From contig JBGPRA010000002.1 of assembly GCA_041489375.1 (NCBI GenBank), positions 1-39,144 of the forward strand: a stretch of DNA of 39,144 nt, given 5' to 3'. This stretch comes from Candidatus Bathyarchaeia archaeon. GTDB taxonomy: Archaea; Thermoproteota; Bathyarchaeia; TCS64. Positions 1 through 39,067 of this stretch are shown here, piece by piece. The notes under the pieces are model-generated. The model was not told the origin of the DNA and did no database searches. It worked only from the letters and a program-made list of their open reading frames with translations. Numbering within the stretch: the stretch's first letter is position 1; every line of letters begins with the position of its first letter. The position numbers and the translations under genes are program-made.

Positions 1-219
1 CGGGATGTCTGATCCGAGGCTGAAAGCTAGCTGCGCGAATGATGCAGCGAGTCCGCTGAGTAGGTAGAAGAATATGAAGTTGGTGTGTCCGAAGCGATCT
101 TCCACATTGTCTCCGAATATCCACAGGTAGAGCGGCGCGCGCGCGTTGATGGCAATTATGCCGTAGGATACGAGTGGAACGGTTTTACTGGAACTGTTAT
201 CGTCGCCTATTGGGATCAT
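1..219 (-). pseudogene. Rhomboid-family intramembrane protease; runs off the window edge and appears internally deleted
   Basis: Hand translation from ATG 219-217 gives MIPIGDDNSSSKTVPLVSYGIIAINARAPLYLWIFGDNVEDRFGHTNFIFFYLLSGLAASFAQLAF. LWIFGDNVEDRxGH and YLLSGLAA are rhomboid-type motifs. The ~50-60 aa normally between the N-terminal ..AIN segment and LWIFG are absent. The junction is the (GC)n run 135-145, coding ARAP. It is absent from the ORF track because there is no stop in the window. Confidence 0.5.
135..145. repeat. Pure CpG-alternating tract gcgcgcgcgcg at the rhomboid deletion junction
   Basis: Read directly: agcgGCGCGCGCGCGttg. Confidence 0.9.
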
Positions 220-365
220 GAGCTATTTCTATCTTCATGGTTGTGACGACAATATTTAAGTTTACAGGCTAATCTACGTGCATGATTGATCTATATCACC
301 GATTCATAATGTTATAATAATTTGACAGATTTTGGTAAGATGAAATTACGCTCTGAGGGTTATCT

Positions 366-1928
366 TTGTTATCGGTGCTCTACCAATTCCTTGAGAACTC
401 CCCTGAATCCGTTACAATGGTCCTAAACGGTAAGTATTACTATGTGAATCAGAGTGCATCAGAGCTCCTAGGTTATCATGCCCCTGATGAGGTGCTTGGG
501 AGGGAACCCTCCGATTTCATCGCCTCCTCGGATAAGACGTGGGTTATGGGTATACTAAATGGCCTGGCTAAGGGTGAGACTCATCCACTTCGCTATGAGT
601 TCAAAATGAGGAGGGTTGACGAAACTGAGGTAGAGGTTGAGACCTATCTTAAGATCATCTATGTGGGTGAGAATCTTGCAACCCTCGCGTTTACGAGAGA
701 TATTTCCCAAAGGAAGATGTATGAGAGGAGACTTGAAGCCCTACATAATATTTCCAGGGATCTCGGCAAGGCTAAGAGCCTTCAAGAAATTATGGAGATT
801 ACTCTAGTAACGATTTCAGGCCTGCTAGGTTTCCGTTGGTGTGGGATCGGCTTCGTTGAGGGTGATGGGCTACATTACAGCTTACATATAGGGGATAAGA
901 GCTTCGGAGGAGGCTTATTTCAACTCAATAGCCCAAGTGTAACCTTGCGAGCGATGAAGACGGGCCAGGCTCAGCTTGTGAAGGATACGAGACTCGATCC
1001 CGATTATCAACATACACCGAATAGCCCCTCTAAAGAGATGTTATCGGAATTAACGGTGCCAATCACAATAGATGGGGTTGTTGAAGGCATCATCAACCTT
1101 GAGAGTGAGGAGCTTAACGCCTTTAATGAGAATGATCAGAAGCTTATCCAGACCCTGGCTTACCACGTCGCTTCAGCAATTATCAATATTCGTTCACGCG
1201 AAAACATAAGGAGGAACCTTGAGGAGCTCGAGCGCTCTAACAGGGATCTAGATGAGTACACATATGTTGTGTCTCATGATCTCAAGGCCCCGCTAAGGAC
1301 GATCAAGTCTTTCAGCACTTTTCTCTCAGAGGACTATGGGCATCTGCTGGATGACTCTGGCAAGGATTACTTGCTCAGAATAGCCTCCGCGGCAACTAAC
1401 ATGGATCATCTTATCGAGGATCTTCTACTCCTTTCGAGGGTGGGAAGGAAGTTTACAGAGAATGAGGAGGTTAATCTTAACGAGGTTCTCGAGGAAATCA
1501 AGTCCGATCAGGCCGCCATGTTAGCTGAGAGGAATTGTAGGGTAATCGTAGGAGAGCTCCCCTCAATAAGGATCCAGAGGATATGGGCGAAACAGATCTT
1601 CGCCAACTTGATGAATAACGGGTTGAAGTTCAACGAGTCTCAGAGCCCAACGGTTGAGGTTTCCTGTATAAATGAAGCTGATAGATATGTCTTCGCTGTC
1701 AAAGATAATGGGATCGGGATTGACGAGAAGTATCACTCAAAGCTCTTCAAAATATTTGAGAGGCTCGACGCTGGGGGAAAGTTTGAGGGGACAGGAGCTG
1801 GGCTCGCAATTAGTAAGAAGATCGCTGAATACTTCGGCGGGGAGATCTGGGTGGAGAGTAAGCCGAGCGTTGGGAGCACATTCTTTTTTTCAGTCCCACA
1901 GAAGGCAGGTGAAACTAAGGAGGATTGA
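366..1928 (+). CDS. Sensor histidine kinase with PAS-like and GAF-like sensor domains
   Basis: 520-aa ORF. H-box SHDLKAPLRTI, N-box NLMNNGLKF, G1 DNGIGI, G2 GTGAGLAISKKI. N-terminal PAS-like segment (YVNQSASELLGY) followed by a GAF-like region. GAGGG lies ~8 nt upstream of TTG 366. Confidence 0.9.
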   Translation: MLSVLYQFLENSPESVTMVLNGKYYYVNQSASELLGYHAPDEVLGREPSDFIASSDKTWVMGILNGLAKGETHPLRYEFKMRRVDETEVEVETYLKIIYVGENLATLAFTRDISQRKMYERRLEALHNISRDLGKAKSLQEIMEITLVTISGLLGFRWCGIGFVEGDGLHYSLHIGDKSFGGGLFQLNSPSVTLRAMKTGQAQLVKDTRLDPDYQHTPNSPSKEMLSELTVPITIDGVVEGIINLESEELNAFNENDQKLIQTLAYHVASAIINIRSRENIRRNLEELERSNRDLDEYTYVVSHDLKAPLRTIKSFSTFLSEDYGHLLDDSGKDYLLRIASAATNMDHLIEDLLLLSRVGRKFTENEEVNLNEVLEEIKSDQAAMLAERNCRVIVGELPSIRIQRIWAKQIFANLMNNGLKFNESQSPTVEVSCINEADRYVFAVKDNGIGIDEKYHSKLFKIFERLDAGGKFEGTGAGLAISKKIAEYFGGEIWVESKPSVGSTFFFSVPQKAGETKED

Positions 1929-2383
1929 TTTTGTCTACAAGTAAAATTCAGCAGAACCAGGCAATATTATTAGTGGAAGACAACCCGGACGATGTCCTGA
2001 TAACCAAGAGGGCTCTTTCAAAGGGAAGGATAAGTAACGCCCTCTACGTGGTGAACAATGGCGAGGAAGCTATCAGGTTCCTAAGGAAGCAGGGTGATTA
2101 CAGGGGGGCATGTACCCCTGCTCTGGTCCTACTCGACCTAAACATGCCTAAGATGGATGGTTTCCAGGTACTCAAGGAGATTAAAAACGACGCGAAGCTG
2201 AAGAGCATCCCAATAATCGTCTTAACGACATCTGATAGGGACAGGGACATAGATGACGCCTATAAATATGGTTGCAATAGCTACATAGTAAAACCTGTCA
2301 GCTTTGAGAACTTCATTAAAACAGTTATTGAGATCAAGGATTACTGGCTGTGTCTATCGCGCGTCCCAGCTGATATAAGGTGA
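1925..2383 (+). CDS. Single-domain response regulator (CheY-like receiver)
   Basis: LLVEDNPDD, phospho-acceptor context LLDLNMPKMDG, conserved lysine context IVKP. The start overlaps the kinase stop by 4 nt. AAGGAGG SD at 1917-1923. Confidence 0.9.
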   Translation: MILSTSKIQQNQAILLVEDNPDDVLITKRALSKGRISNALYVVNNGEEAIRFLRKQGDYRGACTPALVLLDLNMPKMDGFQVLKEIKNDAKLKSIPIIVLTTSDRDRDIDDAYKYGCNSYIVKPVSFENFIKTVIEIKDYWLCLSRVPADIR

Positions 2384-2397
2384 AATGAGGTGCATGT

Positions 2398-4967: not shown

Positions 4968-5084
4968 TATAGTTGGTAAGACATTAATTTTAAGCGCGCT
5001 TGGCGTGTTATTACGCGCGCAATAAAATATATGAAAATAAATTAGTAATGATATTAACTACATTGCTCCTCTTACAGGTATATT

Positions 5085-5882
5085 ATGTATAATATTGAAA
5101 ATTTTGTTAGATTAACAAGAATTAATGAGTATTTTAAAGTTTTACTATTACTTTTTCCTTTAATATTTATAATTTCTCCGCAAAATCTTTTATCATTCGT
5201 AACCATTGAAATCTTTTTATCCAATCTCCTCCTTACGGCATTTACATATACATTTAATGATGTAGAGGATGCGGAAGATGATTATTTTGATGCTAATAAG
5301 AGGAAAAGGAACCCAGTCACAAGCCAAGAATTAACAAAAAATCAAGGCTATTTTTTCAGCTTTATCCTTTTAGCCACTGGTTTACTTTTACTTTATTTAA
5401 TTAGTCCATTAATTTTTGTTGTTGGAATTATTTTTTCTTTTATAGGTTTCATTTATTCCTGGAAGCCAATAAGATTAAAATCTATTCCGATCATTGATCT
5501 TTTTTCACATGTACTTTTTTTGGGGGCTCTTCAATTCCTGACAACCTACATGACGTATAGAACAATTGAGTTACTTATTATTCCCTTTTTAATGATAATT
5601 ATTCCTTTTTCATTGATAAATCAACTCATGGGTGAATTAAATGATTTCAAGGTTGATAAAGAAACAAAAAACATCAACACCATTCAAAAATTTGAAAGGA
5701 TTAATATGAGAAAGATAATTATCTTTTGTGGTATGGTAATGTTCATTGGTTTTTCAACAATCTTTTTTACTGATCTATTAGAAAATAGACTAGTCAATCT
5801 TCCAATCACATTATTAATTGGCAGTATGGCGTTCTATAGACTGCGTTTTTTTTTGAATGACACCAAGAGATTTGACACTTAA
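5085..5882 (+). CDS. UbiA-family aromatic/isoprenoid prenyltransferase, polytopic membrane protein
   Basis: 265 aa and very hydrophobic. First Asp-rich motif NDVEDAEDD, second Asp-rich segment NDFKVDKE. Strongly AT-rich coding sequence. Confidence 0.7.
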   Translation: MYNIENFVRLTRINEYFKVLLLLFPLIFIISPQNLLSFVTIEIFLSNLLLTAFTYTFNDVEDAEDDYFDANKRKRNPVTSQELTKNQGYFFSFILLATGLLLLYLISPLIFVVGIIFSFIGFIYSWKPIRLKSIPIIDLFSHVLFLGALQFLTTYMTYRTIELLIIPFLMIIIPFSLINQLMGELNDFKVDKETKNINTIQKFERINMRKIIIFCGMVMFIGFSTIFFTDLLENRLVNLPITLLIGSMAFYRLRFFLNDTKRFDT

Positions 5883-5934: not shown

Positions 5935-5945
5935 GCGCGCGTGTG
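5935..5945. repeat. CG/TG-alternating tract gcgcgcgtgtg followed by T8
   Basis: Read directly: accgGCGCGCGTGTGtttttttt, at the right edge of the AT-rich islet. Confidence 0.85.
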
Positions 5946-5988
5946 TTTTTTTTGAAGGATTAGGTTTCACAGTTTATGGTTCTTAAGT

Positions 5989-7290: not shown

Positions 7291-7339
7291 TCTATGAAAA
7301 ATATGATCAGAAAAAGGAATGGATAGCATGTACTCGTCG

Positions 7340-7349
7340 ACGCGCGCGT
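7340..7349. repeat. Perfect 10-bp CG palindrome ACGCGCGCGT between convergent genes
   Basis: Read directly: gtcgACGCGCGCGTatc. Confidence 0.9.
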
Positions 7350-7356
7350 ATCTTGT

Positions 7357-7779
7357 TTAAAATGGTATAAAGTTGGGGAAGGATACTCCGAAGATCTGGA
7401 TTAAAGACAGATCCAATAAGTAAAGCAAAAGCCACGATGCTATGACCATGCCCAGTGCTCCGAGCCGACCGCTGCTGAAGATTCTTCTGTAGACTATTAT
7501 CCACACTATGATTGCTAAGTCGAAGCCAAGGATAGTTGCTGCGATGCCTAGGAACGTATTTAATGATATTGCTATGATGTAGAAAGTCAAGAAGTAGACT
7601 ATTGTGCCTCCAAGTGTGGCGCCCATCGCGTCGCCGAAGCTCGCTAATGTACCCTTGATGAACTTTCCTGCGAAGTAGACTGGGGTTGAGATTGAGATCC
7701 AGAGAAATATCAACCCTGCGATGAAGATGATTATACCAGTCCACGTTGTCGGAAGCGTGGGGGAGATTGGCGGGGCCAA
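7357..7779 (-). CDS. Small integral membrane protein (about 4 TM helices), function unknown
   Basis: 140-aa ORF with four long hydrophobic stretches. Preferred over the overlapping 7307..7744 ORF, which is Arg/His-rich and not protein-like. TTG start. Confidence 0.5.
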   Translation of the reverse strand: MAPPISPTLPTTWTGIIIFIAGLIFLWISISTPVYFAGKFIKGTLASFGDAMGATLGGTIVYFLTFYIIAISLNTFLGIAATILGFDLAIIVWIIVYRRIFSSGRLGALGMVIASWLLLYLLDLSLIQIFGVSFPNFIPF

Positions 7780-7829
7780 TTTGGGTTCACGCTCACATGA
7801 TGTTCAATTTATGTGCATTCACATTTCTA

Positions 7830-7880
7830 TTTAGAATTGATAGTCGCTAAGTTCTAGAGTTTAGAACAGTGTTTAGAAAC
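7830..7880. promoter_or_regulatory. Cluster of TTTAGAA half-sites (three direct, one inverted)
   Basis: tTTTAGAAttg, GTTCTAGAG, GTTTAGAAC and GTTTAGAAAC all fall within 51 bp of the 290-bp spacer upstream of 8071. Confidence 0.3.
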
Positions 7881-8070
7881 TCGAGCACATATTCTCGAAT
7901 GCCGTGGCGGGTCGCGTGTATCCATAAGTTTTTAATAAATTCTCAGGTACGCGTTTTTCAGGTGAGCAAGTTTTATAGAATTACTTTAACGTTTTTTACC
8001 CATGTCCAGGAGCTTGACCGAGAGGAAAATCAAGTATCTAAACAAGCTAATTGTGAGAAACTAGGACAGC

Positions 8071-8304
8071 GTGAATTTTGAGCCGTTGGAAGTACCCACA
8101 TCTCCTAATGAGGAATTGATGCGGCTTAGACTGAGGAGAAAGGCCTACCGGATGTTACTTGATTTATTTAAGTTGGATAAAGCCGGTGTAATAAATTACG
8201 GGGACATTGAGGATTCGGTAGTCAATAATATTTTACTGTTGATGGGTGACGTGTATCTAAGCGAGGATCAGAGGCGGGAGAAACAGGTTTTACTGCTATC
8301 TTGA
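8071..8304 (+). CDS. Hypothetical small protein
   Basis: 77-aa ORF with a GTG start. No recognisable motif. Weak call. Confidence 0.3.
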   Translation: MNFEPLEVPTSPNEELMRLRLRRKAYRMLLDLFKLDKAGVINYGDIEDSVVNNILLLMGDVYLSEDQRREKQVLLLS

Positions 8305-8380
8305 ATTTTAGTCTGCTTGAATTGCCATTGTACGGATTACTAAGTCACGTGTTCTTTTTTATATAAAATCCGATCCCGTC

Positions 8381-10732: not shown

Positions 10733-10850
10733 GCTGACTTCTATCTAGTGGGTTATGAATAATTTAACGTGATTTAGTCGCTCCAGGCATAATGAGGTTT
10801 GAATAGGGTAGTAATTCAGGCGTTCACTCGCGCACGTGTTGCTGGTTTTG

Positions 10851-10860
10851 TGCGCGCGCA
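10851..10860. repeat. Perfect 10-bp CG palindrome TGCGCGCGCA; a related tract cgcgcacgtg lies at 10829-10838
   Basis: Read directly: ttcactCGCGCACGTGttgctggttttgTGCGCGCGCAact. Confidence 0.9.
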
Positions 10861-11163
10861 ACTATACACGACAGCGAGTATGGCTACTAACTACTATGGT
10901 GCATCTATAAGGCACTACTCGATAAAAACTCAGCTTCTGCCACTACAGCTATAAACGCGTTGGCCAAATACACCAAAAAGAATGAGCAACTACACAAAGA
11001 CCTAATGGAACACTTCAAGACTGCTCCGAAGGAAAAACGTGACCTCATCAAGGTACACCGCACACACCAACTTCCCTCCTTCAAATAACATCGCCCTAAA
11101 CCCTCCCTATACCTAAACTCGTCATCGATGGCTCATCTCTTTTCGTCTCATTTTCGCTCCTCA

Positions 11164-11364
11164 GTCCAAGCAGAGTCCAGATAATTTCTCAAGTCGTAAC
11201 CATGTTCAGCCCGTCCACTTTCGCTCAACTGTCTGTCCAAGGTCAAGGGGGCTAAGGATCCACATGCTCCGTAGTCCATCCAGCTTTGCATATTCGTCCC
11301 AAGTTTCCATGGCCAACACAGCTTGTCCACAGTACACACTATAATCTCCGCATGTCCAGGTCCA
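11164..11364 (+). repeat. Array of 8 exact GTCCA pentamers plus one GTCCC variant
   Basis: GTCCA starts at 11164, 11175, 11213, 11235, 11274, 11325, 11354 and 11360. GTCCC at 11296. Overlaps the doubtful ORF 11148..11408. Confidence 0.6.
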
Positions 11365-11503
11365 GTGATGGATTCCTCCGTCTCTCCAATGTACGTCTTC
11401 TCCTCCACGTGCAGCTAACCGCCGCGTCGATGCACCACTAGTCTACACATGGTGCTCATAGAGTAACGCGTCTAGGAAATCAGGGATTGTGCGCACCGCA
11501 CAT

Positions 11504-11605
11504 AGGACCATGGACGAAACATGGATAAATGGACTGGAATTGGACGCAAGGAAAAACATTGGAATATTGGACGAATCGTTATTCGATACTGGACTTCTAC
11601 GGACC
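11504..11605 (+). repeat. Array of TGGAC pentamers (reverse complement of GTCCA) upstream of the ISF gene
   Basis: Exact TGGAC at 11511, 11530, 11541, 11568 and 11590. One-mismatch copies at 11504, 11522, 11535, 11560 and 11600. Several spacings are near 10-11 or 22 nt. Confidence 0.55.
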
Positions 11606-11649
11606 ATAACCTCGAACAAGCTTAATACGTCGTTACCCAAGAACCAGGC

Positions 11650-14210: not shown

Positions 14211-14288
14211 TCTGTTTAACTCTGTATTAATTTGCGGTGTTTACTGCGTTAACAGCTTTGTCATAACGCGTGCGCGTCGTGAGATATG

Positions 14289-17502: not shown

Positions 17503-17636
17503 GTGATCCCCTCAGACGAATTTTTTTAAGGTAGCGCACGTGAAAAGAAAGTTTTTCGATGCGTGTACCATTTTTTTAATTGCGCACGCGACAGCCGATG
17601 TTCAATATCTGACTAAAACTGAATCCTAACTTGGTT

Positions 17637-19618: not shown

Positions 19619-19707
19619 CGGCCTCGTTAAGTGGGAGATGCTTAGGAGGATGTGTAATATACCGATATCGTACGCGCTTTAAACAAACAGATCGATGGCT
19701 GTCTTGC

Positions 19708-20879: not shown

Positions 20880-20895
20880 CGCATGCGCGCGTGCG
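20880..20895. repeat. 16-nt CG-rich alternating tract cgcatgcgcgcgtgcg in a divergent promoter spacer
   Basis: Read directly between the M24 start (20856) and the aldolase start (21009). Confidence 0.85.
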
Positions 20896-21818: not shown

Positions 21819-21900
21819 TCCGCCTCACACGTCGCGCGTGCGACTATAGCCATGGACCGGAAAACACCTGCGATAATCTATCCCACGAAGGTACACATAG

Positions 21901-21910
21901 GCGCGCGCGC
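21901..21910. repeat. Pure (GC)5 tract
   Basis: Read directly: catagGCGCGCGCGCtttt. Left boundary of an orphan gene fragment. Confidence 0.9.
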
Positions 21911-22090
21911 TTTTAAGGGCTGTTGAGCAGAGTCAGCGCCTGGCCAATTCTTGTAGGTTTTCACCCAGATATCCATTTTCCAAGGACCAGCGTTAACGTC
22001 CCAGTCGTCGGCTTCTTTTTGGTGGATATTCTTTAGGAATTGAGAGGCCTTTTCGGCAGTCGCTATTCCTATGAATATATCTTTGTTAAC
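21911..22090 (-). pseudogene. Start-less orphan coding fragment (~60 aa) bracketed by two (CG)n tracts
   Basis: The minus-strand frame reads VNKDIFIGIATAEKASQFLKNIHQKEADDWDVNAGPWKMDIWVKTYKNWPGADSAQQPLK, then ARAP through the CG tract. A TAG lies immediately upstream and there is no start codon. Composition is protein-like; family not recognised. Confidence 0.4.
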
Positions 22091-22116
22091 CTATTTTTTA
22101 CCATCCAGCGTTCTGT

Positions 22117-22127
22117 CGCGCGCGCGC
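22117..22127. repeat. Pure (CG)n tract cgcgcgcgcgc
   Basis: Read directly: ctgtCGCGCGCGCGCctgaac. It lies just to the right of the orphan fragment. It is followed at 22138-22160 by a partial copy of the right half of the 31-38 kb repeat (cttgaaacacaaccgttcattaa). Confidence 0.9.
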
Positions 22128-24258: not shown

Positions 24259-24282
24259 CGCGTGCATGATTACTTGCACGCG
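24259..24282. terminator. Perfect 8-bp GC hairpin CGCGTGCA-n8-TGCACGCG
   Basis: Read directly, 62 nt after the CAP gene stop. Member of the CG-palindrome class; a terminator role is only a guess. Confidence 0.3.
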
Positions 24283-26727: not shown

Positions 26728-26854
26728 TTTGAAGATCCTGGAGGCATCGGCATCAGAAAAGACTTTACTCCACTTAGATACCGCGGCGAATCTTGTCTTG
26801 ATTTAATACCTTCTCTTTAAAACACGGGTATAACACGCACGGTGGTTTAATTCT

Positions 26855-26995: not shown

Positions 26996-27039
26996 ACGTG
27001 TTTCACTAAATCCTATGTCTAAGCGATGAATCGTTTATT

Positions 27040-27048
27040 CGCGCGCGC
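27040..27048. repeat. CG tract cgcgcgcgc at the 5' edge of the ADC-like reading frame
   Basis: Read directly: tattCGCGCGCGCtcgag. Confidence 0.9.
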
Positions 27049-27107
27049 TCGAGAAGGGTGTAAAGTTTGAGGATGTTGAATTCGGTGGCTGGAAGGTTAA
27101 GTTCCCC

Positions 27108-27770
27108 GTGGTGTACAGTGACCAGTCCAGGATAGTTACAAATTATACCGTCTCACTTTCAAAGGCTAAGACTATGCTTCCGAGTAAGAGACTGGAGCCC
27201 ATCGAGGTGAAGCCTGGGCTGGGGATGCTGAGCATCATCGCCTTCGAGTATAGGGCGATCGAAGGTCTGAAGCCCTACAATGAGTTCGGGACGTTCATAC
27301 CGGTCAATTACCGTAAGGAGGATGGTTCATTGGGCGACGCAGGGTCCTACTGCCTTCATCTCCGCGTGACAACTGAGAGAGCCCGATATGGGGGGGTCGC
27401 AATATATGGGTTCCCAAAGTTCGTCGCCGACATCGAGTTCGTCTATGGGAAGGATGCCACGACCTGCGTTGTGTGGCATGATGGAAAGACCATCGCGGAG
27501 CTGTCGGTGAAAAATGTGGAACCAAAGAGAGTTACGAGAAGGTCAATTTCTTATACCTATAAAGATGGCAGCGTACTGAAGACTTCAGTAGACGCTGAGG
27601 GGCTCGTTGGAACCAGTCAGGTTAAGGACGGGGCGAAGTTCAAGCTAGGGACACACAGGATAGCAGACGAGCTAAGGGGGCTAAACCTGGGACCAGAAGC
27701 GGTCGAGTATCAATACATACCCCAGATGTACAGCCTACTCCACAAACCGAGTGAGCGTCTCCCCGCTTAA
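27108..27770 (+). CDS. Acetoacetate-decarboxylase-like (ADC family) protein, probably 5'-truncated
   Basis: VVYSDQSRIVTNYTV..AKTMLP..LEPIEV.PG.GMLSIIAFEY....KPYNEFGTFIPV follows the ADC-family beta-cone N-terminal pattern. The frame is open and protein-like back to 27049 (LEKGVKFEDVEFGGWKVKFP), with no canonical start before GTG 27108. Confidence 0.5.
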   Translation: MVYSDQSRIVTNYTVSLSKAKTMLPSKRLEPIEVKPGLGMLSIIAFEYRAIEGLKPYNEFGTFIPVNYRKEDGSLGDAGSYCLHLRVTTERARYGGVAIYGFPKFVADIEFVYGKDATTCVVWHDGKTIAELSVKNVEPKRVTRRSISYTYKDGSVLKTSVDAEGLVGTSQVKDGAKFKLGTHRIADELRGLNLGPEAVEYQYIPQMYSLLHKPSERLPA

Positions 27771-27780: not shown

Positions 27781-30132
27781 ATGGCTGAGAAAGGCTTCCC
27801 CAAGGTCAAACCGGACAAGAAGGGTTCACCCGTGTCGGTCGTGAGGATGGACCCCAACCATTCCTACGTCGGTATCCCCGAGCTACTCCGATTGGTTATA
27901 GATAAAAACGATGAGCAAGCCTGGGCGGAGATAAGGCGCAAGATCGATTACACCTACACAAACATCGACAAGATGCTCCGAGCATTGAGCAAGGAATCCG
28001 ATTTCCTCATGAAGATACGTGAAGAGCTCGGTAAGGGTAAAATACTATTATTCAAGCCAAACCTCGTCAACCCAACTAACATAGATCCGAACACGCACGG
28101 ACCCGCCCTAGGTCACACAGCCTGCACCGAGTGGCCCTTCATCGCTGCCTTGATGAGGTGGTTCCACGAGAACCTCCCAATTAGCTACTCGAGGATGGTT
28201 CTCGGCGAAGCGGCGACCGCCTCCACGATGACCGCAGCCATGTATAACCAGACGCAGCGTCCGAAGAGAAAGATTACAACGGAAGCTGTATTCGAGGGAC
28301 GATCTGGAGATTTTCACGGAGGCTGGGGCTTCTACTACGTGAGAAAGTACCTGCGAGATGCATCAAGCGACACCGAAGACGATCCTATGCTCGGATACGA
28401 GGAGAGTGTATCCGGGAAATACCTGCCGCCGGGGAAGACGAGGGGTAGGATGATGGTCTACGACCTCAACAAACTCAACGATATCAAGGGCAAGGCCCGG
28501 ACAGTGCCGGTGAAGGACGGGGTAAACTATCGAGAGATAACCTTGCCTAAGGTACTGGTAGGCGGCGACCCGAAGGACCAGAAGGATCTACAAGACTACC
28601 CTGGTGCAGTTCTAGTGAATGTGCCGCGGCTTAAACTCCATGGAATAGACCTCCTTACTAACGCAATCAAGAACCTTGGGATCGGGCTATATCCGATGGA
28701 GATCGGGGAGACGGATGAGCCCCGCGACACCCATTGGAAGTATGCCTACCCGTTTAACGAGATCCCCGGCATGAAGACCGAGATCCCACACTCGGTGTGG
28801 GTGCCAGAGTTCGTAGAAGAGACGGGCCTCCCGATCAAGGGGAAGGATGGCCGTTACAAGTTAAGGAAGACGGGGGGGATATCGGCTACTCAGGCAGACG
28901 TCATCGAGGCCACATTAGACCAAGGCGTCTACATGCTTCATCTCGTCGACGGTATCCAGACAGTGAACATCAACCACTCAGGAGGCTCAAATGCCAAAGA
29001 GATCCCGGAGGGTCTAGCCTTCGCGTCTGAGAACCCAGTAGCGTTGGACCTCCTCTGCGCGAGGTACATCTTCAAAAACGTACCCCGCCTGGAAGCCAAG
29101 AAGTCGGGGCTCGGATCAGAGTTCCTTCAAATGGTCCCCTCACCGAAGATTGAAGGAGGGCAAATAGTGAGTGGAGAAGCGTACGACTCCCCTCTGTTGA
29201 GATACAGCTGGTATGGAAACGCTGAGAAGCGTGGCCTAGGGTCACAACTATACCACGTGGTGGGGTGGGACGATGTTGAGAAACTCCCCTTATCGTCGGT
29301 TGATGGGCACCTGGGTTCTTGTGTGGGTGATGGTTTCAAGGAATCGATCACGACGGAGTTCTATTATGATCCGTCTAATCTCCTCTGGGGGCTGCAGAGA
29401 ACCGCTTTTGACTACTTCCGATCAAACGATGAGTTGACCAAATCTAGTTATTTGAGAAAAGTTCTGAATGCATACGATGAGAATGGTGATGGGCAGCTTG
29501 ACTACGATGAGATGGGGAGGGATGCCTTCTGGCATAGCTATCTGAGACTAGCGGCCTATTGTTATCACTTCAGAGGGGTGAGCCCGTTGGGGGGCATCAA
29601 GTCTGGTTTCCTGATGAGTGCCTTCTATCGTTATGCAGATCCCTCGTGGAACCCGTCGGGGCACGATTTCATAAAGAACTACAAGATAGTATCTGACTTT
29701 TCACTCGCTTATGAGCTCTCAAAGTCTTCCAAGAGTAACGTTGACCCTCTCCACCCTGGAATGAGTTGGGGAAATGGGGCTTGGCCGAGTATGGACTTCG
29801 CGGGGATGCTCTCCACGATGATGAGGATATATGGTCAAAGCTACCCGACTCGAGTCAGCCTCTCCTCCCTATATGGTTACGCGTTCCAGTACGCTGACAA
29901 GGTGCAGGCGAATGGATACTATACGGGGGGCACGGGGCTGAATTCCGACCGCGAATCCCTGAACAAGTACCTCAAGGACTCCGAGAGCGGTTTACAGAAA
30001 CTGAAGCTCAAGGTCTATGTACCTAAGGGATTCGGCAAAATGGGCAAAATAACATATCCAAACCTAGAGGAGACGAGTGACCCTGCGAAGATATTCACAG
30101 CCGTATTCCCAGATGAAAAATGGGAGATATGA
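27781..30132 (+). CDS. Large DUF362-domain protein with a C-terminal extension containing a canonical EF-hand loop
   Basis: ILLFKPNLVNPTN, VLVNVPRLKLHGIDLLTNAIKNLGIG and ASENPVALDLLCARY match the DUF362 pattern. DENGDGQLDYDE (29476-29511) fits the 12-residue EF-hand loop. Starts 10 nt after the ADC-like stop. Confidence 0.7.
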   Translation: MAEKGFPKVKPDKKGSPVSVVRMDPNHSYVGIPELLRLVIDKNDEQAWAEIRRKIDYTYTNIDKMLRALSKESDFLMKIREELGKGKILLFKPNLVNPTNIDPNTHGPALGHTACTEWPFIAALMRWFHENLPISYSRMVLGEAATASTMTAAMYNQTQRPKRKITTEAVFEGRSGDFHGGWGFYYVRKYLRDASSDTEDDPMLGYEESVSGKYLPPGKTRGRMMVYDLNKLNDIKGKARTVPVKDGVNYREITLPKVLVGGDPKDQKDLQDYPGAVLVNVPRLKLHGIDLLTNAIKNLGIGLYPMEIGETDEPRDTHWKYAYPFNEIPGMKTEIPHSVWVPEFVEETGLPIKGKDGRYKLRKTGGISATQADVIEATLDQGVYMLHLVDGIQTVNINHSGGSNAKEIPEGLAFASENPVALDLLCARYIFKNVPRLEAKKSGLGSEFLQMVPSPKIEGGQIVSGEAYDSPLLRYSWYGNAEKRGLGSQLYHVVGWDDVEKLPLSSVDGHLGSCVGDGFKESITTEFYYDPSNLLWGLQRTAFDYFRSNDELTKSSYLRKVLNAYDENGDGQLDYDEMGRDAFWHSYLRLAAYCYHFRGVSPLGGIKSGFLMSAFYRYADPSWNPSGHDFIKNYKIVSDFSLAYELSKSSKSNVDPLHPGMSWGNGAWPSMDFAGMLSTMMRIYGQSYPTRVSLSSLYGYAFQYADKVQANGYYTGGTGLNSDRESLNKYLKDSESGLQKLKLKVYVPKGFGKMGKITYPNLEETSDPAKIFTAVFPDEKWEI

Positions 30133-30165
30133 TCTGCACGCGAATTACTGCGCACTAAATGTACT

Positions 30166-31383: not shown

Positions 31384-31402
31384 GCGTACGCGACGTGTGC
31401 GC
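31384..31402. repeat. 19-nt unbroken purine-pyrimidine alternation gcgtacgcgacgtgtgcgc
   Basis: Read directly, 4 nt after the MBL stop. Confidence 0.85.
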
Positions 31403-31550: not shown

Positions 31551-32114
31551 GTGATGCATGTGAGGCACACTGAGCGCGTCGATTCATTCAAGGGCTCCGA
31601 CGGGCGCATGGCATCGACTTCCGTTGGTAGGGAAGCCGCAGCGGAGTTTGGTGAAAAGCTCCCCCTGAATAGACGCTATCGACTCTTCCACACCTACCTA
31701 GAACGAACCCGCGAGACGGCGGAGGAGATGCAGAGAGGTATAGTCAAGGGAGGTGGATGTGCTAAGCTTTGGGGAGAGATCAGACCACTTAAGACTTTAG
31801 ATTTGGAGGCGTTTCAGAGGTGGATACAGGACTGTAGATGGTTCCCCGAGGACGGTGGCTATCACGCCACGTGCAATTGGATCGCGGGTCTAATCCCCGA
31901 AACGATCCGTGACCCTTCGATTAGCTTCGCACGGGGGATGGCGGAGATTACTATGAATAATTTACTTGGGGCACAGTCGAATGCCTTTCATATCTACGTC
32001 AGCCACGATACGTGGGTTCAGGCCCTAGTATTCCACTGGTTCGGTGTTCCTCCTCATCAAGGTGGGTTGCGGTTCCTTGATGGGTTCCTTATGCAGCCCT
32101 TTGATGGGGTATAA
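31551..32114 (+). CDS. Histidine phosphatase superfamily (phosphoglycerate-mutase-like) protein
   Basis: VRHTER near the N-terminus (RHG-type motif) and a late YVSHDTW (second catalytic His context). GTG start. Confidence 0.6.
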   Translation: MMHVRHTERVDSFKGSDGRMASTSVGREAAAEFGEKLPLNRRYRLFHTYLERTRETAEEMQRGIVKGGGCAKLWGEIRPLKTLDLEAFQRWIQDCRWFPEDGGYHATCNWIAGLIPETIRDPSISFARGMAEITMNNLLGAQSNAFHIYVSHDTWVQALVFHWFGVPPHQGGLRFLDGFLMQPFDGV

Positions 32115-32185: not shown

Positions 32186-32210
32186 TAGATAATCTTATCC
32201 TCAGTTTCAC
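32186..32210 (+). repeat. Intergenic repeat, copy A
   Basis: tagataatCTTATCCTcAGTTtCAC lies between two convergent genes. Confidence 0.6.
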
Positions 32211-32245
32211 TTAACGATTTACTGTTCGCGTATGCGATTCGGTGT

Positions 32246-33968: not shown

Positions 33969-34127
33969 TACCCGTCTCCTTTTCAGGGTTCTATAATCTA
34001 GATTTGGGAGTTTACTATTTATCAACTTCTACTGGTTAGAGTGGCGTAAAACTATGCGGTTCAGCAGTTCTGTTCACTAACGTATTCATTGAAGAGAGCT
34101 TTCACTCGCACACGCGTCGCTTGTTAC

Positions 34128-34158
34128 ACATCCTTATTCTGAGTTCCACCTGAGAACC
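34128..34158 (+). repeat. Intergenic repeat, copy B
   Basis: acatCCTTATtCTGAGTTCCACCTGAgaacc lies in a divergent spacer. Confidence 0.75.
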
Positions 34159-34169
34159 TCATTATTAAT

Positions 34170-34179
34170 CGCGCGCGCG
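34170..34179. repeat. Pure (CG)5 tract
   Basis: Read directly: taatCGCGCGCGCGaac, 12 nt after repeat copy B. A related tract cgcacacgcgt lies at 34107-34117. Confidence 0.9.
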
Positions 34180-34203
34180 AACTAAAGTCTGCGTAATACT
34201 TAC

Positions 34204-34214
34204 ACATATTAACC
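34204..34214 (+). promoter_or_regulatory. Candidate TATA box for the SDR gene
   Basis: acatattaacc is centred ~30 nt upstream of ATG 34239. Confidence 0.3.
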
Positions 34215-34238
34215 GATACTGCGAAAGAAGAAAGTTGT

Positions 34239-35021: not shown

Positions 35022-35061
35022 GTGAGGAAAGAACTGGAGCAGGTAGGGGAATGCGCGTGCG

Positions 35062-35091
35062 AATAGTCTTATCCTGAGTTCCACTCGATAC
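35062..35091 (+). repeat. Intergenic repeat, copy C
   Basis: aatagtCTTATCCTGAGTTCCACtcGATAC lies between convergent genes. It is directly preceded by the CG tract atgcgcgtgcg (35051-35061). Confidence 0.8.
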
Positions 35092-36028: not shown

Positions 36029-36101
36029 TTGGGGTATGTGACGAACATAGCCTTATCCTGAGTTCCATCTGATACTCAACCGTGATTGTATGGTTGATCT
36101 A
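36029..36101 (+). repeat. Intergenic repeat, copy D (full length, runs into the first four codons of the 36090 gene)
   Basis: TTGGGGtatgtgacgaacATAGCCTTATCCTGAGTTCCAtCTGATACtCAACCGTGAttgtATGGTTGATCTA. Confidence 0.85.
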
Positions 36102-37247: not shown

Positions 37248-37385
37248 AAAAACCTTACCACAAAGTTACTTTGGCATAAGCCTCATCTAACGTATAATAA
37301 TCTTATCCTGAGTACCACCTTATATTTCTCAGTGAATTATAGATGGTTGATCTACAGACCATCGATGTTATAATACGCATACAGT
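37248..37385 (+). repeat. Composite repeat unit G (same architecture as F)
   Basis: aaaaaccttaCCACAAAGTTACTTTGGcataagcctcatctaacgtataataatCTTATCCTGAGTaCCACCTtatatttctcaGTGAattatagATGGTTGATCTA. An inverted partial core (cttGGAACTCgG, 37237-37247) and the CG tract catgtgtgcg (37225-37234) lie just upstream. Confidence 0.75.
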
Positions 37386-37433
37386 TCAGTGAATAGGAGC
37401 TGCAGCAGTCAGCCACTCCATGAGGAGAAACGA

Positions 37434-38417
37434 ATGAAGATCATCGACGTCCACAACCACGTGAACCCGCGTCCATTCCTGGAGGCAGTGCGAGCCGGTC
37501 ATAGTTGGTATGGATTCACCGCCGAACACGGCGAGCTTGAGAACCCACGGAACCACTGGACCCTAGAAGAGCGGATTGCCGAAATGGACCGACTCGGAGT
37601 GGATATACAGGCACTCACCGTCTACGGCGACTTCAACAAATACGACCGAGCCCCGGAGAATACTAAAGCAGCGGTCAGGGCTTGCAACGACGAGGTGGCA
37701 GCCATGGTCGATGAGTACCCCGATCGATTCGTTGGCCTGGGCATTCTACCCTTGCAGGACGTAGCAGCATCGGTAGTTGAACTCGAGCGGGCAATCACCG
37801 ACCTAGGGCTGAAGGGCGTCACAATCAAGGACCACATCAATGGGAAAACCCTAGACGAGCCACAGTTCCTCCCCTTCTGGGAGGCTGCTGAGCGGCTGGG
37901 AGCCGTCGTTGAGTTCCACCAGGGCAGCACGATTGTGGCGCAGCGGATCCCACGCTACTTCCTCGAGAACACAGTCGGCAATCTGGTGGAGCGTGTGCTC
38001 ACCTTTGGGGCTCTGGTGCATGGCGGGATCATCGATCGCTTTCCTAAGCTGAAGGTTTGTCTGCTGCATGGGGGCGGCTATGTGGCTTTCGGGGTTGCCC
38101 GTATGGACAAGGGTTGGGAGGCGGCGAAGCTGGACTATATGGTCAAGTACTCGAGTGAGGATGCCCGCCAGTCGATATCTAAGCCTCCGAGCCAGTACGT
38201 GGGGAGCTTTTATTACGACTGTTGCACCTTCAGCGAGTCGACTCTGCGTTTCCTGATTGACACTGTGGGGATCGAGAGGGTAGTATTCGGGACCGATTAC
38301 CCTTGTCCTATGGAGATGGTGAATTCGGTTAATTGGATCAATAGCCTGGGGAGCCTTAGCTGTTCGGAGAAGCAGGCGATTTTGTCGGTGAACCCGGCCC
38401 GGATCCTCACCATCTGA
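37434..38417 (+). CDS. Amidohydrolase-2 family metal-dependent hydrolase/decarboxylase (ACMSD-like)
   Basis: MKIIDVHNHV (HxH), HGGG and FGTDYP motifs. GAGGAG lies upstream of ATG 37434. The ORF-track start 37389 falls inside repeat G. Confidence 0.85.
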   Translation: MKIIDVHNHVNPRPFLEAVRAGHSWYGFTAEHGELENPRNHWTLEERIAEMDRLGVDIQALTVYGDFNKYDRAPENTKAAVRACNDEVAAMVDEYPDRFVGLGILPLQDVAASVVELERAITDLGLKGVTIKDHINGKTLDEPQFLPFWEAAERLGAVVEFHQGSTIVAQRIPRYFLENTVGNLVERVLTFGALVHGGIIDRFPKLKVCLLHGGGYVAFGVARMDKGWEAAKLDYMVKYSSEDARQSISKPPSQYVGSFYYDCCTFSESTLRFLIDTVGIERVVFGTDYPCPMEMVNSVNWINSLGSLSCSEKQAILSVNPARILTI

Positions 38418-38434
38418 CTAGTTGGCTAGCTAAT

Positions 38435-38488
38435 TTGGGGCTATAACCCTATCCTGAGTTCCACCTGATACACAACCGTGAACATTTA
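38435..38488 (+). repeat. Intergenic repeat, copy H (full length)
   Basis: TTGGGGCtATAaCCcTATCCTGAGTTCCACCTGATACaCAACCGTGAacattta. Confidence 0.85.
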
Positions 38489-38557
38489 TCTCAAACGAGT
38501 TCGCAGTAATCAGAGATCGTAATTTGATAATTTTTTATCTTTACAGAACAAGTCACA

Positions 38558-39067
38558 TTGAGCTGCGTCGAATTGATAGTCGAGAAGACATTCGAATCAC
38601 CTGAGTGTAGGCTGAACTATGCGGAGGGCCCAGATAACGGCCCACCATTGTTACTATTACATGGAGGACAGGACCGTTGGCAGGACTACCTACCACTAAT
38701 GTCGGTGCTAATCACTCGATGGCACCTATACGCCCTGGACTTCAGGGGACACGGGGGATCCGAGCACACACCTGGAAGATACAAGCTAAGAAGCTTCACC
38801 TCAGATGTGGCCACTTTCGCAGAGCAGAAAATAGGGAAGCCTATGATGTTGGTAGCACATAGCATGGGTGGCATAATCGGCTTAATGGTTGCAGCTAACC
38901 ACCCAAATCTAGTGAAGGCACTTGTTGTAGGTGACGCTCCCCCCAAGGAAAGCCTTAGAGCATCTGCAATGCACCCTCTCTTCACCCTGACCCATCGCGC
39001 GCGCATAGAAACCTGCGATTCCAGCGTTCATCGCGGTCTCCCCCACCTCGATGCCGTTGATGTGTAG
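38558..39067 (+). pseudogene. Alpha/beta-hydrolase, 3'-truncated after about 146 aa at a CG tract
   Basis: LLLLHGG (oxyanion region) and the nucleophile elbow AHSMGG are present. The Asp/His half of the fold is missing. From 38996 the frame runs through cgcgcgcgc into the antisense of another gene fragment and stops at 39067. Confidence 0.6.
38996..39004. repeat. CG tract cgcgcgcgc at a head-on junction of two gene fragments
   Basis: Read directly: cccatCGCGCGCGCatag. Confidence 0.9.

What the first reader, a model, noticed from the sequence alone, without database searches (positions are those of the whole stretch)
135..39004. CpG-alternating tracts fill intergenic spacers and coincide with breakpoints of truncated genes
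By hand count at least 11 loci carry 7 nt or more of pure (CG)n: 135, 5014, 5935, 7341, 10852, 20885, 21901, 22117, 27040, 34170 and 38996. Four of them are 10 nt or longer. About 20 further spacers carry close variants: CGCGTGCG, GCGCACG, GTGCGaCGCAC, CACGCctGCGTG, CGCGTGCA-n8-TGCACGCG, and a 19-nt alternation at 31384. For a random 39-kb sequence at 50% G+C, a pure CG alternation of 10 nt or more is expected well under once. I noticed no run of 8 nt or more inside an intact CDS, where only ordinary 6-mers occur. Many tracts are perfect palindromes (ACGCGCGCGT, TGCGCGCGCA). They occur upstream of, downstream of and between genes in every relative orientation. The tract sits exactly at the discontinuity in four gene-decay sites: the rhomboid in-frame deletion at 135-145, the orphan fragment bracketed at 21901-21910 and 22117-22127, the start-less ADC-like gene at 27040-27048, and the head-on fusion of two gene fragments at 38996-39004. 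This suggests either a recombination- or deletion-prone structure (Z-DNA or cruciform-forming CG repeats) or the footprint or terminus of an unrecognised mobile or editing process. I do not know of a described archaeal element with these properties.
Basis: partly seen in the sequence, partly recalled or inferred. Interest (0 to 1): 0.7.

Follow-up and report, generated by a model that had tools for sequence, protein, structure and literature searches.

The report
CG-repeat filler at archaeal deletion scars
In this soil or sediment archaeon (Bathyarchaeia) and some of its relatives, places where DNA was lost are sealed by a short inserted run of alternating C and G, which points to an undescribed way of rejoining broken DNA in archaea.

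Summary
Pure CG alternations of 7 nt or more occur 11 times against 2.0 expected, and those of 10 nt or more occur 4 times against 0.02. No other dinucleotide repeat is enriched. G+C-rich purine/pyrimidine alternations of 8 nt or more occur 36 times in 6.5 kb of non-coding DNA against 6.7 expected, with no excess in coding DNA. Three other assemblies of the same species reproduce every tract they cover.

Alignment to intact homologues confirms three of the four claimed gene breakpoints: the rhomboid, the ADC-like gene and the hydrolase/M55 fusion. The 'orphan fragment' is not confirmed.

The key evidence comes from two allele pairs in other Bathyarchaeia lineages. A 467-nt and a 2,023-nt stretch of intact genes are replaced by A(GC)5 and (GC)5. 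The intact alleles carry no CG tract in or next to the lost stretch. The tract is therefore filler added when a deletion is sealed, not an older fragile site.

The many CGCGTG- or CACGCG-type variants in spacers fit transition decay of older scars. The enzyme responsible is unknown. I found no published description. The trait is patchy among relatives.

The parts
135..145 (.). (GC)5G tract at an internal deletion of a rhomboid protease gene
   Evidence: Homologues (P0164 and others, up to 75% identical) have about 50 residues (L1 loop and TM2 with the HxxxN motif) between ...IALN and LYLWIFG. The window has only ARAP there, encoded by the tract. The Pfam Rhomboid match starts at profile position 25, right after the tract. 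The GlpG alignment agrees.
1..219 (-). Rhomboid pseudogene, which runs off the window start. The N-terminal 25 codons lie at 145-219 and the TM2-onward part at 1-132.
   Evidence: Translation. In NCBI contig L152 the gene is also interrupted by a stop and is called as two ORFs of 93 and 58 aa.
5014..5020 (.). CGCGCGC tract (TACGCGCGCA) in a tandem spacer, 63 nt upstream of the UbiA-family gene
5935..5946 (.). GCGCGCGTGTGT tract, 52 nt after the stop of gene 5085-5882, followed by T8
7340..7351 (.). ACGCGCGCGTAT tract between convergent gene ends
   Evidence: gene calls of L151
10849..10860 (.). TGTGCGCGCGCA tract in a 917-nt spacer that holds several other alternating tracts
20880..20895 (.). 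CGCATGCGCGCGTGCG tract at a 52-nt indel relative to the closest relative, L083
   Evidence: In a 3.7-kb alignment at 87.6% identity, the only indel of 10 nt or more lies here. A same-species T/C transition at 20884 keeps the alternation.
21833..21842 (.). CGCGCGTGCG tract 14 nt after the HpcH-family stop. Homology with L083 ends inside it, at 21835.
21901..21910 (.). (GC)5 tract, left bracket of a 206-nt segment
   Evidence: AGGCGCGCGCGC / GCGCGCGCGCCT form a 12-nt perfect inverted repeat.
21911..22116 (.). 206-nt segment between two (CG)5 tracts. Its origin is unknown and it is not shown to be a gene fragment.
   Evidence: No Pfam hit in six frames; no homologue; no match in the fetched loci.
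22117..22127 (.). (CG)5C tract, right bracket of the 206-nt segment
27040..27048 (.). (CG)4C tract at the 5' breakpoint of the ADC-like gene
   Evidence: Nucleotide homology to L147 and L148 (84-86%) starts at 27046, and the upstream DNA cannot be aligned.
27049..27770 (+). ADC-like (acetoacetate decarboxylase family) gene that has lost its start codon and promoter
   Evidence: Intact homologues are 245 aa and start MVTYSLEKG. The window reads IVYSRALEKG after an in-frame stop, and the first usable start is a GTG 25 codons in.
30135..30142 (.). TGCACGCG tract 2 nt after the DUF362 gene stop. Homology with L147 ends at 30132.
   Evidence: L147 has its own tracts 16 and 67 nt after the same stop.
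31384..31402 (.). GCGTACGCG + ACGTGTGCGC, two adjacent decayed tracts just after a stop codon
34170..34179 (.). (CG)5 tract in a divergent spacer, 59 nt upstream of the short-chain dehydrogenase gene
   Evidence: Identical in L081 and L150.
38558..38995 (+). Alpha/beta hydrolase gene truncated after about codon 146 of 275-285
   Evidence: Pfam profile positions 1-107 of 245 only. Intact homologues are 275-285 aa. blastn homology to L149 ends exactly at 38996.
38996..39004 (.). (CG)4C tract that joins two convergent, 3'-truncated genes
   Evidence: The same junction is present in NCBI MAG contig L150.
39005..39144 (-). M55 (D-aminopeptidase family) gene fragment. Only the N-terminal part of about 146 residues survives, and it ends at the tract.
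   Evidence: Pfam profile positions 101-146 of 264 end at the tract. The full N-terminal part is seen in L150.
14266..14277 (.). ACGCGTGCGCGT, an example of a decayed tract: 11 nt after a stop and 55 nt upstream of the next start
17534..17590 (.). GCGCACGTG and TGCGCACGCG in a convergent spacer
19669..19677 (.). CGTACGCGC in a spacer that is 97% conserved with L083, just upstream of a TATA-like box. This one may be functional.
35051..35061 (.). ATGCGCGTGCG in a convergent spacer

Best explanation
The (CG)n tracts are filler DNA left where a deletion or rearrangement was sealed.

Inferred steps: a break occurs and the ends lose from about 50 nt to 2 kb. A short run of alternating C and G (typically 8-11 nt, most often (GC)4 or (GC)5) is then synthesised at the ends. 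Because (CG)n is self-complementary, two such tails can pair with each other and be ligated.

Shown: the junction carries 8-12 nt of CG alternation that is absent from the intact allele, with 0-2 nt of microhomology to either flank.

Shown in part: after insertion the tract decays. Substitutions in this population are about three-quarters transitions, which keep the purine/pyrimidine alternation. Old scars therefore become CGCGTG-, CACGCG- or GCGCAC-type tracts.

Inferred: scars accumulate where deletions are tolerated, that is between a stop codon and the next core promoter and inside dying genes. This would explain why nearly every spacer of this genome carries one.

The enzyme is not identified. 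The most plausible candidates are an archaeal primase or PrimPol-type microhomology end-joining activity that reiterates on a CG seed, or a dedicated polymerase that makes an alternating copolymer.
For: 1. Two clean allele pairs in other Bathyarchaeia lineages. L134 has an intact 548-aa Amidohydro_3 gene. In L101 (95-98% identical) 467 nt of that gene are replaced by A(GC)5. L094 has DUF6144 and ATPase_2 genes. In L102 (86-90% identical) 2,023 nt are replaced by (GC)5. The lost segments and their edges hold no CG alternation of 6 nt or more.
2. In the window, the rhomboid has lost about 50 codons, which are replaced by the 12 nt that encode ARAP. ADC-like homology starts at 27046. Hydrolase homology ends at 38996 and the M55 match ends at the other edge of the tract. 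The orthologues L147, L148 and L149 have no tract at those points.
3. All four internal ends of nucleotide homology that fall in a tract or at a gene end lie in or within 3 nt of a tract (27046, 30132, 21835, 38996). A fifth end, the L149 homology start at 38523, has no tract in the window; L149 has one 16 nt away. The only indel of 10 nt or more against L083 is at tract 20880.
4. Across all close pairs of loci, 9 of 128 homology ends have a pure (CG) run of 8 nt or more within 6 nt. Random positions give 0.31 on average, with a maximum of 4 in 2,000 trials.
5. Only (CG)n is enriched among dinucleotide repeats. The length spectrum over 513 kb of Bathyarchaeia loci has a bump at 8 (counts 92, 15, 24, 8, 5, 2, 1 for lengths 6-12). 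It falls steadily in non-Bathyarchaeia loci.
6. 39 of 53 same-species SNPs are transitions. One lies in tract 20884 and keeps the alternation.
7. Tracts avoid the 50 nt upstream of start codons and are commonest 10-39 nt after stops and about 60-69 nt upstream of starts.
8. Enzymatic precedents. Saccharolobus primase PriSL does terminal transfer and anneals ends on as few as two GC pairs in end joining (PMC12019639). DRT3 polymerases make strictly alternating dinucleotide DNA (PMC13174585).
Against: - No enzyme or gene is linked to the trait, and nothing repair-related is encoded in the window.
- That the tract was added at the moment of joining, rather than growing there later, is inferred from parsimony.
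- That most spacer tracts are decayed scars is an inference. At least one (19669) sits in a 97%-conserved promoter-proximal spacer and could be functional.
- Many rearrangement ends in other relatives have no tract (for example L112/L124 and L125/L130). The process is therefore lineage-limited or only one of several.
- Contig L151 joins the same right flank and tract at 135 to a different left flank. This hints that tracts can be re-used, which simple one-off filler does not predict. The 49-nt tail could also be a contig-end artefact.
- Some GCGCGCGC 8-mers in relatives lie inside the HpcH coding sequence at one conserved position. The length bump is also inflated by orthologous copies.
Confidence: 0.62

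Rival explanations
1. Fragile-site model. (CG)n tracts exist first, as Z-DNA- or cruciform-prone elements in spacers. They provoke breaks and deletions of neighbouring DNA, and they survive at the junction because one end keeps the tract.
For: - (CG)n is the classic Z-DNA former and is known as a deletion hot spot (Freund 1989 and Wang 2006, as cited in PMC13174585).
- The tract at 38996 has truncated genes on both sides, which repeated one-sided events could produce.
- Contig L151 shows the same tract and right flank joined to a different left flank.
- Tract positions are shared with L083 in three spacers.
Against: - The intact alleles L134 and L094 have no CG alternation of 6 nt or more in or beside the lost DNA.
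- The orthologues L147, L148 and L149 and the rhomboid homologues have no tract at the breakpoints, which lie inside coding sequence.
- Tracts of 8-11 bp are short for a B-to-Z transition or cruciform extrusion (own knowledge).
- The model does not explain where the tracts come from. Such motifs are generally suppressed in prokaryotes (PMC4060949).
Confidence: 0.15
2. Functional spacer element. The tracts are selected DNA or RNA signals, such as a boundary or terminator element after genes, a site for a dimeric DNA-binding protein or a methyltransferase, or a supercoiling-sensitive element upstream of promoters. Their presence at gene breakpoints is then secondary.
For: - Tracts occur in about two-thirds of spacers, are commonest 10-39 nt after stops and about 60 nt upstream of starts, and are absent from core promoter regions.
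- Tract 19669 lies in a 97%-conserved spacer next to a TATA-like box.
- Some form hairpins, for example CGCGTGCA-n8-TGCACGCG at 24259-24282.
Against: - The same positional pattern is expected for scars that are tolerated only outside promoters and genes.
- Half of the divergent spacers, including one of 427 nt, have no tract.
- The purest and longest tracts sit inside dead genes, where no such signal is needed.
- There is no fixed spacing and no extended consensus, and no positional signal in relatives.
- The trait is patchy among close relatives that share the same genes.
Confidence: 0.12
3. Mobile micro-element or excision footprint. The tracts are the ends, target sites or footprints of a transposable or integrating element, analogous to the GC clusters of yeast mitochondria or to REP or MITE elements.
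For: - They are G+C-rich palindromes in A+T-rich spacers, sporadic among relatives, like mitochondrial GC clusters (PMC4478555).
- The 206-nt segment at 21911-22116 is bracketed by 12-nt perfect inverted repeats.
- The L151 variant could be an element still in place.
Against: - No sequence is conserved beyond the CG run itself.
- There is no target-site duplication.
- In every resolved case the tract comes with loss of ordinary host genes, not of an element.
- The bracketed segment has no copy elsewhere and no homologue.
- The L151 left flank was found in no other locus and in no viral contig.
Confidence: 0.07
4. Artefact. The tracts or the junctions are assembly, polishing or chimeric-read errors.
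For: - One contig end (L151 nt 1-49) diverges from the window exactly at a tract.
- The window differs from L081 by a homopolymer indel.
Against: - Contigs from three sources (JGI, an NCBI MAG and Logan) agree with the window over about 31.8 of 39.1 kb, with no indel in any tract.
- The same signature appears in unrelated samples and lineages (L101, L102, L137, L113, L001).
- A repeat of 8-11 nt is far shorter than assembly k-mers (own knowledge).
Confidence: 0.03

Closest known systems
Filler or N-nucleotide addition at end-joining junctions (eukaryotic TdT, Pol mu and Pol lambda; bacterial and archaeal LigD-type polymerase; archaeal primase PriSL microhomology-mediated end joining, PMC12019639)
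   Same: Extra nucleotides that are absent from both parental flanks sit exactly at deletion junctions. Microhomology is 0-2 nt. G/C is preferred. PriSL pairs ends on as few as two GC pairs and has terminal-transfer activity.
   Different: Here the filler is a strictly alternating, self-complementary (CG)4-6 of nearly fixed length (8-11 nt). It is not a few random or locally templated bases. The reported PriSL products are mostly 1-2 bp indels. No such signature is described in the papers I could search.
Z-DNA-forming (CG)n as deletion hot spots (Freund et al. 1989; Wang et al. 2006; cited in PMC13174585)
   Same: The sequence is the same, and it is associated with deletions.
   Different: In those systems the tract comes first and the deletions remove repeat units or nearby DNA. 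Here the undeleted alleles have no tract, so the tract is a product of the event.
Palindromic GC clusters of yeast and other fungal mitochondrial genomes (PMC4478555)
   Same: Short G+C-rich palindromes scattered in A+T-rich spacers, sporadic between close relatives, and linked to genome rearrangement.
   Different: GC clusters are defined elements of about 30-50 nt with family consensus sequences and putative target-site duplications, and they spread as insertions. The tracts here are 7-12 nt of pure CG with no consensus beyond the repeat, and in the resolved cases they replace lost DNA.
DRT3 reverse transcriptases that synthesise alternating poly(dTdG) and poly(dCdA) (PMC13174585)
   Same: They show that a prokaryotic polymerase can enforce strict dinucleotide alternation, whether RNA-templated or protein-templated.
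   Different: The dinucleotide differs, the products are long and serve anti-phage defence, and no link to chromosomal junctions is known. This is a mechanistic precedent only. No such gene was seen here.
RY box of the Halobacterium bop promoter (recalled from memory, not checked here)
   Same: An alternating purine/pyrimidine tract just upstream of an archaeal promoter.
   Different: It is a single regulatory site, not a genome-wide feature, and it has no link to deletions.

Membership tests
End-joining junctional filler (N-addition type) | The junction holds nucleotides absent from both parental flanks. | tested here: met
   L101 against L134: 11 nt, A(GC)5. L102 against L094: 10 nt, (GC)5, of which at most 2 nt at each side could be templated. 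The rhomboid has 12 nt encoding ARAP in place of about 50 codons.
End-joining junctional filler (N-addition type) | The junction is accompanied by loss of flanking DNA, and the undeleted allele is ancestral. | tested here: met
   Intact Amidohydro_3 (profile 2-472 of 472) in L134 against fragments in L101. DUF6144 and ATPase_2 are present in L094 and absent in L102. Intact homologues exist for the ADC-like, hydrolase and rhomboid genes.
End-joining junctional filler (N-addition type) | It depends on an end-joining enzyme set (Ku/LigD, PolX, or primase/PrimPol). | not testable with these tools
   Only 39 kb plus flanks of the genome are available, and no such gene lies in them.
Z-DNA or cruciform (CG)n fragile site | The tract is present at the site before the rearrangement. 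| tested here: not met
   There is no CG alternation of 6 nt or more in or at the edges of the lost segments of L134 and L094, and none at the orthologous breakpoints in L147, L148 and L149.
Z-DNA or cruciform (CG)n fragile site | The tract is long enough to adopt the alternative structure in vivo. | not testable with these tools
   Tracts are 7-12 nt. Whether that suffices in this organism cannot be computed here.
Mobile palindromic GC cluster, REP or MITE | A family consensus extends beyond a simple repeat. | tested here: not met
   The flanks of 40 tracts of 8 nt or more are unrelated.
Mobile palindromic GC cluster, REP or MITE | Simple insertion polymorphism with target-site duplication. 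| tested here: not met
   The resolved polymorphisms are replacements of 52, 467 and 2,023 nt, with no duplication.
Microsatellite slippage | General excess of dinucleotide repeats, and length variation between strains. | tested here: not met
   Only (CG)n is enriched. There is no length change in any tract among assemblies that are 99.8-99.95% identical. The one exception is 9 against 11 nt at the divergent end of L151.
Regulatory or terminator motif | Fixed position relative to gene ends, and conservation in orthologous spacers. | tested here: inconclusive
   There is a positional bias but no fixed spacing. One tract is conserved in a 97%-identical spacer, while others lie at indels.

The most novel reading that the evidence does not exclude
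A subset of Bathyarchaeia has a dedicated DNA-end-joining (or DNA-capture) system. Its polymerase tails broken ends with a short, self-complementary alternating CG copolymer, which makes any two ends cohesive. This would be a natural counterpart of linker-tailing in cloning. It would drive gene loss and gene-order shuffling in these genomes, and each event would leave a datable scar.
Probability: 0.3. Interest if true: 0.9.

Novelty: new variant of a known kind. Interest (0 to 1): 0.78.

Why it matters
How most archaea repair double-strand breaks without Ku is an open question.

A sequence signature that marks each repair event would make the pathway traceable in metagenomes. Comparing the presence or absence of the signature with gene content across lineages could point to the enzyme.

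The scars would also record gene loss and rearrangement in an abundant uncultured archaeal group. Their decay by transitions would give a rough date for each event.

The signature would also explain an unusual genome feature: an excess of Z-DNA-type motifs in spacers, where prokaryotes normally suppress them.

Tried and rejected
- General microsatellite slippage: rejected, since only (CG)n is enriched.
- Assembly artefact: rejected on agreement between several assemblies.
- Gene remnants in the long spacers (7291-8380, 10733-11649, 15561-15987, 21819-22446, 26728-27110, 33969-34238). A six-frame Pfam scan found only a small C2H2 zinc-finger ORF near 26995. tblastx against all loci found nothing.
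- The 'orphan fragment': no homologue.
- Synteny with the nearest GTDB relative, L001: none beyond the query gene, so orthologous spacers could not be compared there.
- A test of tract enrichment at homology ends using all pairs, including those at 70-80% identity. It was uninformative (116 against 160 in the control), because those ends only reflect the fading of similarity at gene borders. It was repeated on close pairs only.
- Search for the left flank of L151 in the loci and in viral contigs: nothing.
- Search of the window's unknown proteins for repair functions: nothing.
- Literature searches for CG filler or Z-DNA motifs in archaeal spacers: no description found.
- Protelomerase target sites (central CGCGCG) and restriction-site palindromes were considered from memory. 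I dropped them because there are far too many sites, because no extended consensus of the kind a telomere-resolution site has was seen around the tracts, and because restriction pressure would deplete such sites rather than enrich them.

Full report
**What the window is.** The window has 49.9% G+C and a dense set of metabolic and signalling genes. Its M24 peptidase is 79% identical to that of a Candidatus Bathyarchaeota MAG (L001). An NCBI MAG of the same species exists (GCA_041478955.1). Its contigs L150 and L152 match the window at 99.8% identity. JGI metagenome contigs L081 and L151 (sample 3300052989) and Logan contigs L082 and L154 (SRR29605724) match at 99.9%. Together these contigs cover about 31.8 of the 39.1 kb, and no tract they cover shows an indel. 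These assemblies may share reads, but they come from different assemblers.

- All 11 listed pure CG alternations are at the stated coordinates.
- Against dinucleotide-preserving shuffles, runs of 7 nt or more number 11 against 2.0 expected. Runs of 8 or more number 8 against 0.43. Runs of 10 or more number 4 against 0.017.
- The other five dinucleotide repeat types are at or below expectation, so this is not general slippage.
- Non-coding DNA is A+T-rich (42% G+C, against 51% in coding DNA). Even so, GCGCGC, CGCGCG and CACGCG are the three 6-mers most enriched in it, and CGCACG and GCACGC are also among the top dozen.
- G+C-rich purine/pyrimidine alternations of 8 nt or more number 36 in 6.5 kb of non-coding DNA against 6.7 expected. 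They still number 27 against 6.4 after removing those with a pure CG core. In coding DNA the count is 21 against 28.
- About 22 of 31 spacers of 20 nt or more carry at least one tract, in tandem, convergent and divergent arrangements.
- Tracts are almost absent from the 50 nt upstream of start codons. They are commonest 10-39 nt after stop codons and about 60-69 nt upstream of starts.

**Are the gene breakpoints real?** Three of the four are.
- *Rhomboid (135-145).* Homologues up to 75% identical have about 50 residues between ...IALN and LYLWIFG. These residues form the L1 loop and TM2 with its HxxxN motif. The window has only ARAP there, encoded by the tract. The Pfam and GlpG alignments both start right after the tract. 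In L152 the gene is also cut by a stop codon.
- *ADC-like gene (27040-27048).* Intact homologues are 245 aa and start MVTYSLEKG. The window reads IVYSRALEKG after an in-frame stop. Nucleotide homology to L147 and L148 starts at 27046, and the upstream DNA is unrelated.
- *Hydrolase/M55 fusion (38996-39004).* The alpha/beta hydrolase matches intact 275-285 aa homologues only as far as residue 146 or so. blastn homology to L149 ends exactly at 38996. On the other strand an M55 peptidase keeps only its first 146 residues or so and ends at the other edge of the tract.
- *Not confirmed.* The 206-nt 'orphan fragment' between the tracts at 21901 and 22117 has no Pfam hit and no homologue. It is, however, bracketed by a perfect 12-nt inverted repeat.

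**Tracts mark where relatedness breaks.** Four of the five internal ends of nucleotide homology between the window and its nearest relatives fall in or within 3 nt of a tract: 27046, 30132, 21835 and 38996. The fifth, the start of L149 homology at 38523, lies in a spacer with no tract in the window; L149 has one 16 nt away. The only indel of 10 nt or more in the 3.7-kb alignment with L083 (87.6% identity) is a 52-nt gap exactly at tract 20880-20895.

**Which came first, the tract or the deletion?** I compared all close pairs (83% identity or more) among the 64 related metagenome loci. This produced two allele pairs in other lineages in which both states are visible.
- *L134 and L101.* L134 carries an intact 548-aa Amidohydro_3 gene (Pfam profile 2-472 of 472). 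In L101, which is 95-98% identical, 467 nt of that gene are replaced by AGCGCGCGCGC. Only fragments of the gene remain.
- *L094 and L102.* L094 carries a DUF6144 gene and an ATPase_2 gene. In L102, 2,023 nt running from inside the first gene to the end of the second are replaced by GCGCGCGCGC.
- In both pairs the allele with the tract is clearly the derived, deleted one.
- In both pairs the lost segment and its edges hold no CG alternation of 6 nt or more. At most 2 nt at each side of the tract could have been templated by the flanks.
- Two further homology starts, in L137 ((GC)4) and L113 (ACGCGCGC), look the same.

Over all close pairs, 9 of 128 internal homology ends have a pure CG run of 8 nt or more within 6 nt. 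Random positions give 0.31 on average, with a maximum of 4 in 2,000 trials. These 9 ends correspond to five independent events.

**Conclusion on mechanism.** The tract is made when the junction is made. It is filler at a sealed deletion, not an older fragile site. The window's orthologues agree, since they have ordinary coding sequence where the window has a tract.

**Other properties.**
- *Length.* Over 513 kb of Bathyarchaeia loci, pure CG runs of length 6-12 number 92, 15, 24, 8, 5, 2 and 1. There is a bump at 8 and nothing beyond 12. In 1.27 Mb of non-Bathyarchaeia loci the counts fall steadily. Some of the 8-mers are orthologous copies, and three lie at one conserved coding position in HpcH, so the bump is somewhat overstated.
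- *Distribution.* The trait is patchy. The window has 5.8 tracts per kb of non-coding DNA against 0.66 per kb of coding DNA. The other loci average 1.4 against 0.7, and a minority (L083, L102, L104/L105, L136, L139 and L001) resemble the window. Several lineages show rearrangement ends with no tract at all.
- *Decay.* Among assemblies of the same species, 39 of 53 SNPs are transitions. One of them, at 20884, lies inside a tract and keeps the alternation. A pure (CG)n scar should therefore decay first into CGCGTG-, CACGCG- or GCGCAC-type tracts. These are exactly the variants enriched in the spacers. That most spacer tracts are such decayed scars is inference, not demonstration.

**How it most likely works.**
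- *Shown:* a deletion, with 8-12 nt of new CG alternation at the junction and almost no microhomology.
- *Inferred:* broken ends are resected, and a polymerase builds short alternating CG tails. Because the tails are self-complementary they pair with each other, and the joint is filled and ligated.
- *Candidate activities:* Saccharolobus primase PriSL carries out terminal transfer, anneals ends on as few as two GC pairs and extends across the discontinuity in microhomology-mediated end joining (PMC12019639). Repeated pairing and extension on a CG seed would give (CG)n. DRT3 enzymes show that strict dinucleotide alternation can be enforced by an RNA template or by the protein itself (PMC13174585).
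- *Not found:* nothing in the window encodes such an enzyme.

**Rivals.**
- The fragile-site model fails the test of the undeleted alleles. It still fits one odd observation. JGI contig L151 shares the right flank and the tract at 135 with the window but continues into 49 nt of unrelated sequence on the left. That sequence was found nowhere else. It may be a real structural variant that re-used the tract. It may also be a contig-tip artefact shorter than one read.
- A functional role cannot be excluded for some tracts. The tract at 19669 lies in a spacer that is 97% conserved with L083, next to a TATA-like box.
- A mobile-element origin lacks any consensus sequence, any target duplication and any simple insertion polymorphism.
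- An artefact is very unlikely.

**Comparison with what is known.**
[quoted passage not shown] The excess in these spacers is therefore unusual.
- Junctional filler is known from end joining, but I know of no case where it is a strictly alternating, near fixed-length CG run. My searches found none.
- Mitochondrial GC clusters (PMC4478555) look similar at the genome level, but they are defined elements of 30-50 nt that spread as insertions.
- I therefore rate this a new variant of a known kind (junctional filler). A categorically new reading remains open: a dedicated CG-tailing end-joining system.

**Verdict.** The finding is interesting because it gives a readable signature of an unknown archaeal break-repair route and of ongoing gene loss.

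Noticed in passing
window 32194-32211, 34133-34150, 35068-35085, 36052-36069, 37302-37319, 38448-38465 (and a weaker copy near 36734): A second spacer motif, ATAATCTTATCCTGAGTTCCACCTGATAC, occurs 6-7 times (0.05 expected), always on the + strand and only between 32 and 38.5 kb. Most copies lie 20-120 nt upstream of + strand genes. It could be a shared promoter or regulator site, or a small repeat element. Three copies lie within 20 nt of a CG-type tract.
   Followed up: partly
window 135-145 against L151 nt 1-58: JGI contig Ga0534152_0000718 shares the tract (9 nt instead of 11) and everything to its right with the window, but has 49 nt of unrelated sequence to its left. This is either a real structural variant joined at the tract or a contig-tip artefact. 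The left flank was not found in any fetched locus or in the viral collection.
   Followed up: partly
window 32105: There is a one-base difference in a G run (G4 in the window, G5 in JGI contig L081). It shifts the frame of gene 31551-32114, which is 208 aa in L081. It is either a homopolymer error in one assembly or a real frameshift.
   Followed up: no
window 19619-19707: The spacer between the M24 peptidase stop and the NAPRTase start is about 97% identical to L083, while the flanking genes are about 88% identical. This suggests a strongly constrained promoter or regulatory region. It contains the tract CGTACGCGC.
   Followed up: partly
window about 26855-26995 (- strand): A small ORF not in the 100-aa ORF map used here encodes a C2H2 zinc-finger-like peptide (MKRCEFCQETFDTDESLLIHLIQKH...). 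It lies about 45 nt from the tract at 27040.
   Followed up: no
window 27781-30132 against L147 880-3230: The 783-aa DUF362 protein of the window is encoded as two adjacent genes (123 and 659 aa) in the relative L147. This is either a gene fusion or split, or a frameshift in one of the two.
   Followed up: no
L094 5398, L104 10178, L108 434: GCGCGCGC also occurs inside the HpcH-family coding sequence, at the same position in several relatives (an Ala-Arg-Ala stretch). Not every 8-nt CG run in this clade is therefore a junction scar.
   Followed up: no
L150 10748-12193 (beyond the window end): A 1.4-kb stretch of the same species' MAG has no called genes. It holds several tracts, including CGCGCGCGC at 11349, and an uncalled glyoxalase-like ORF. 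It may be another decaying region.
   Followed up: no
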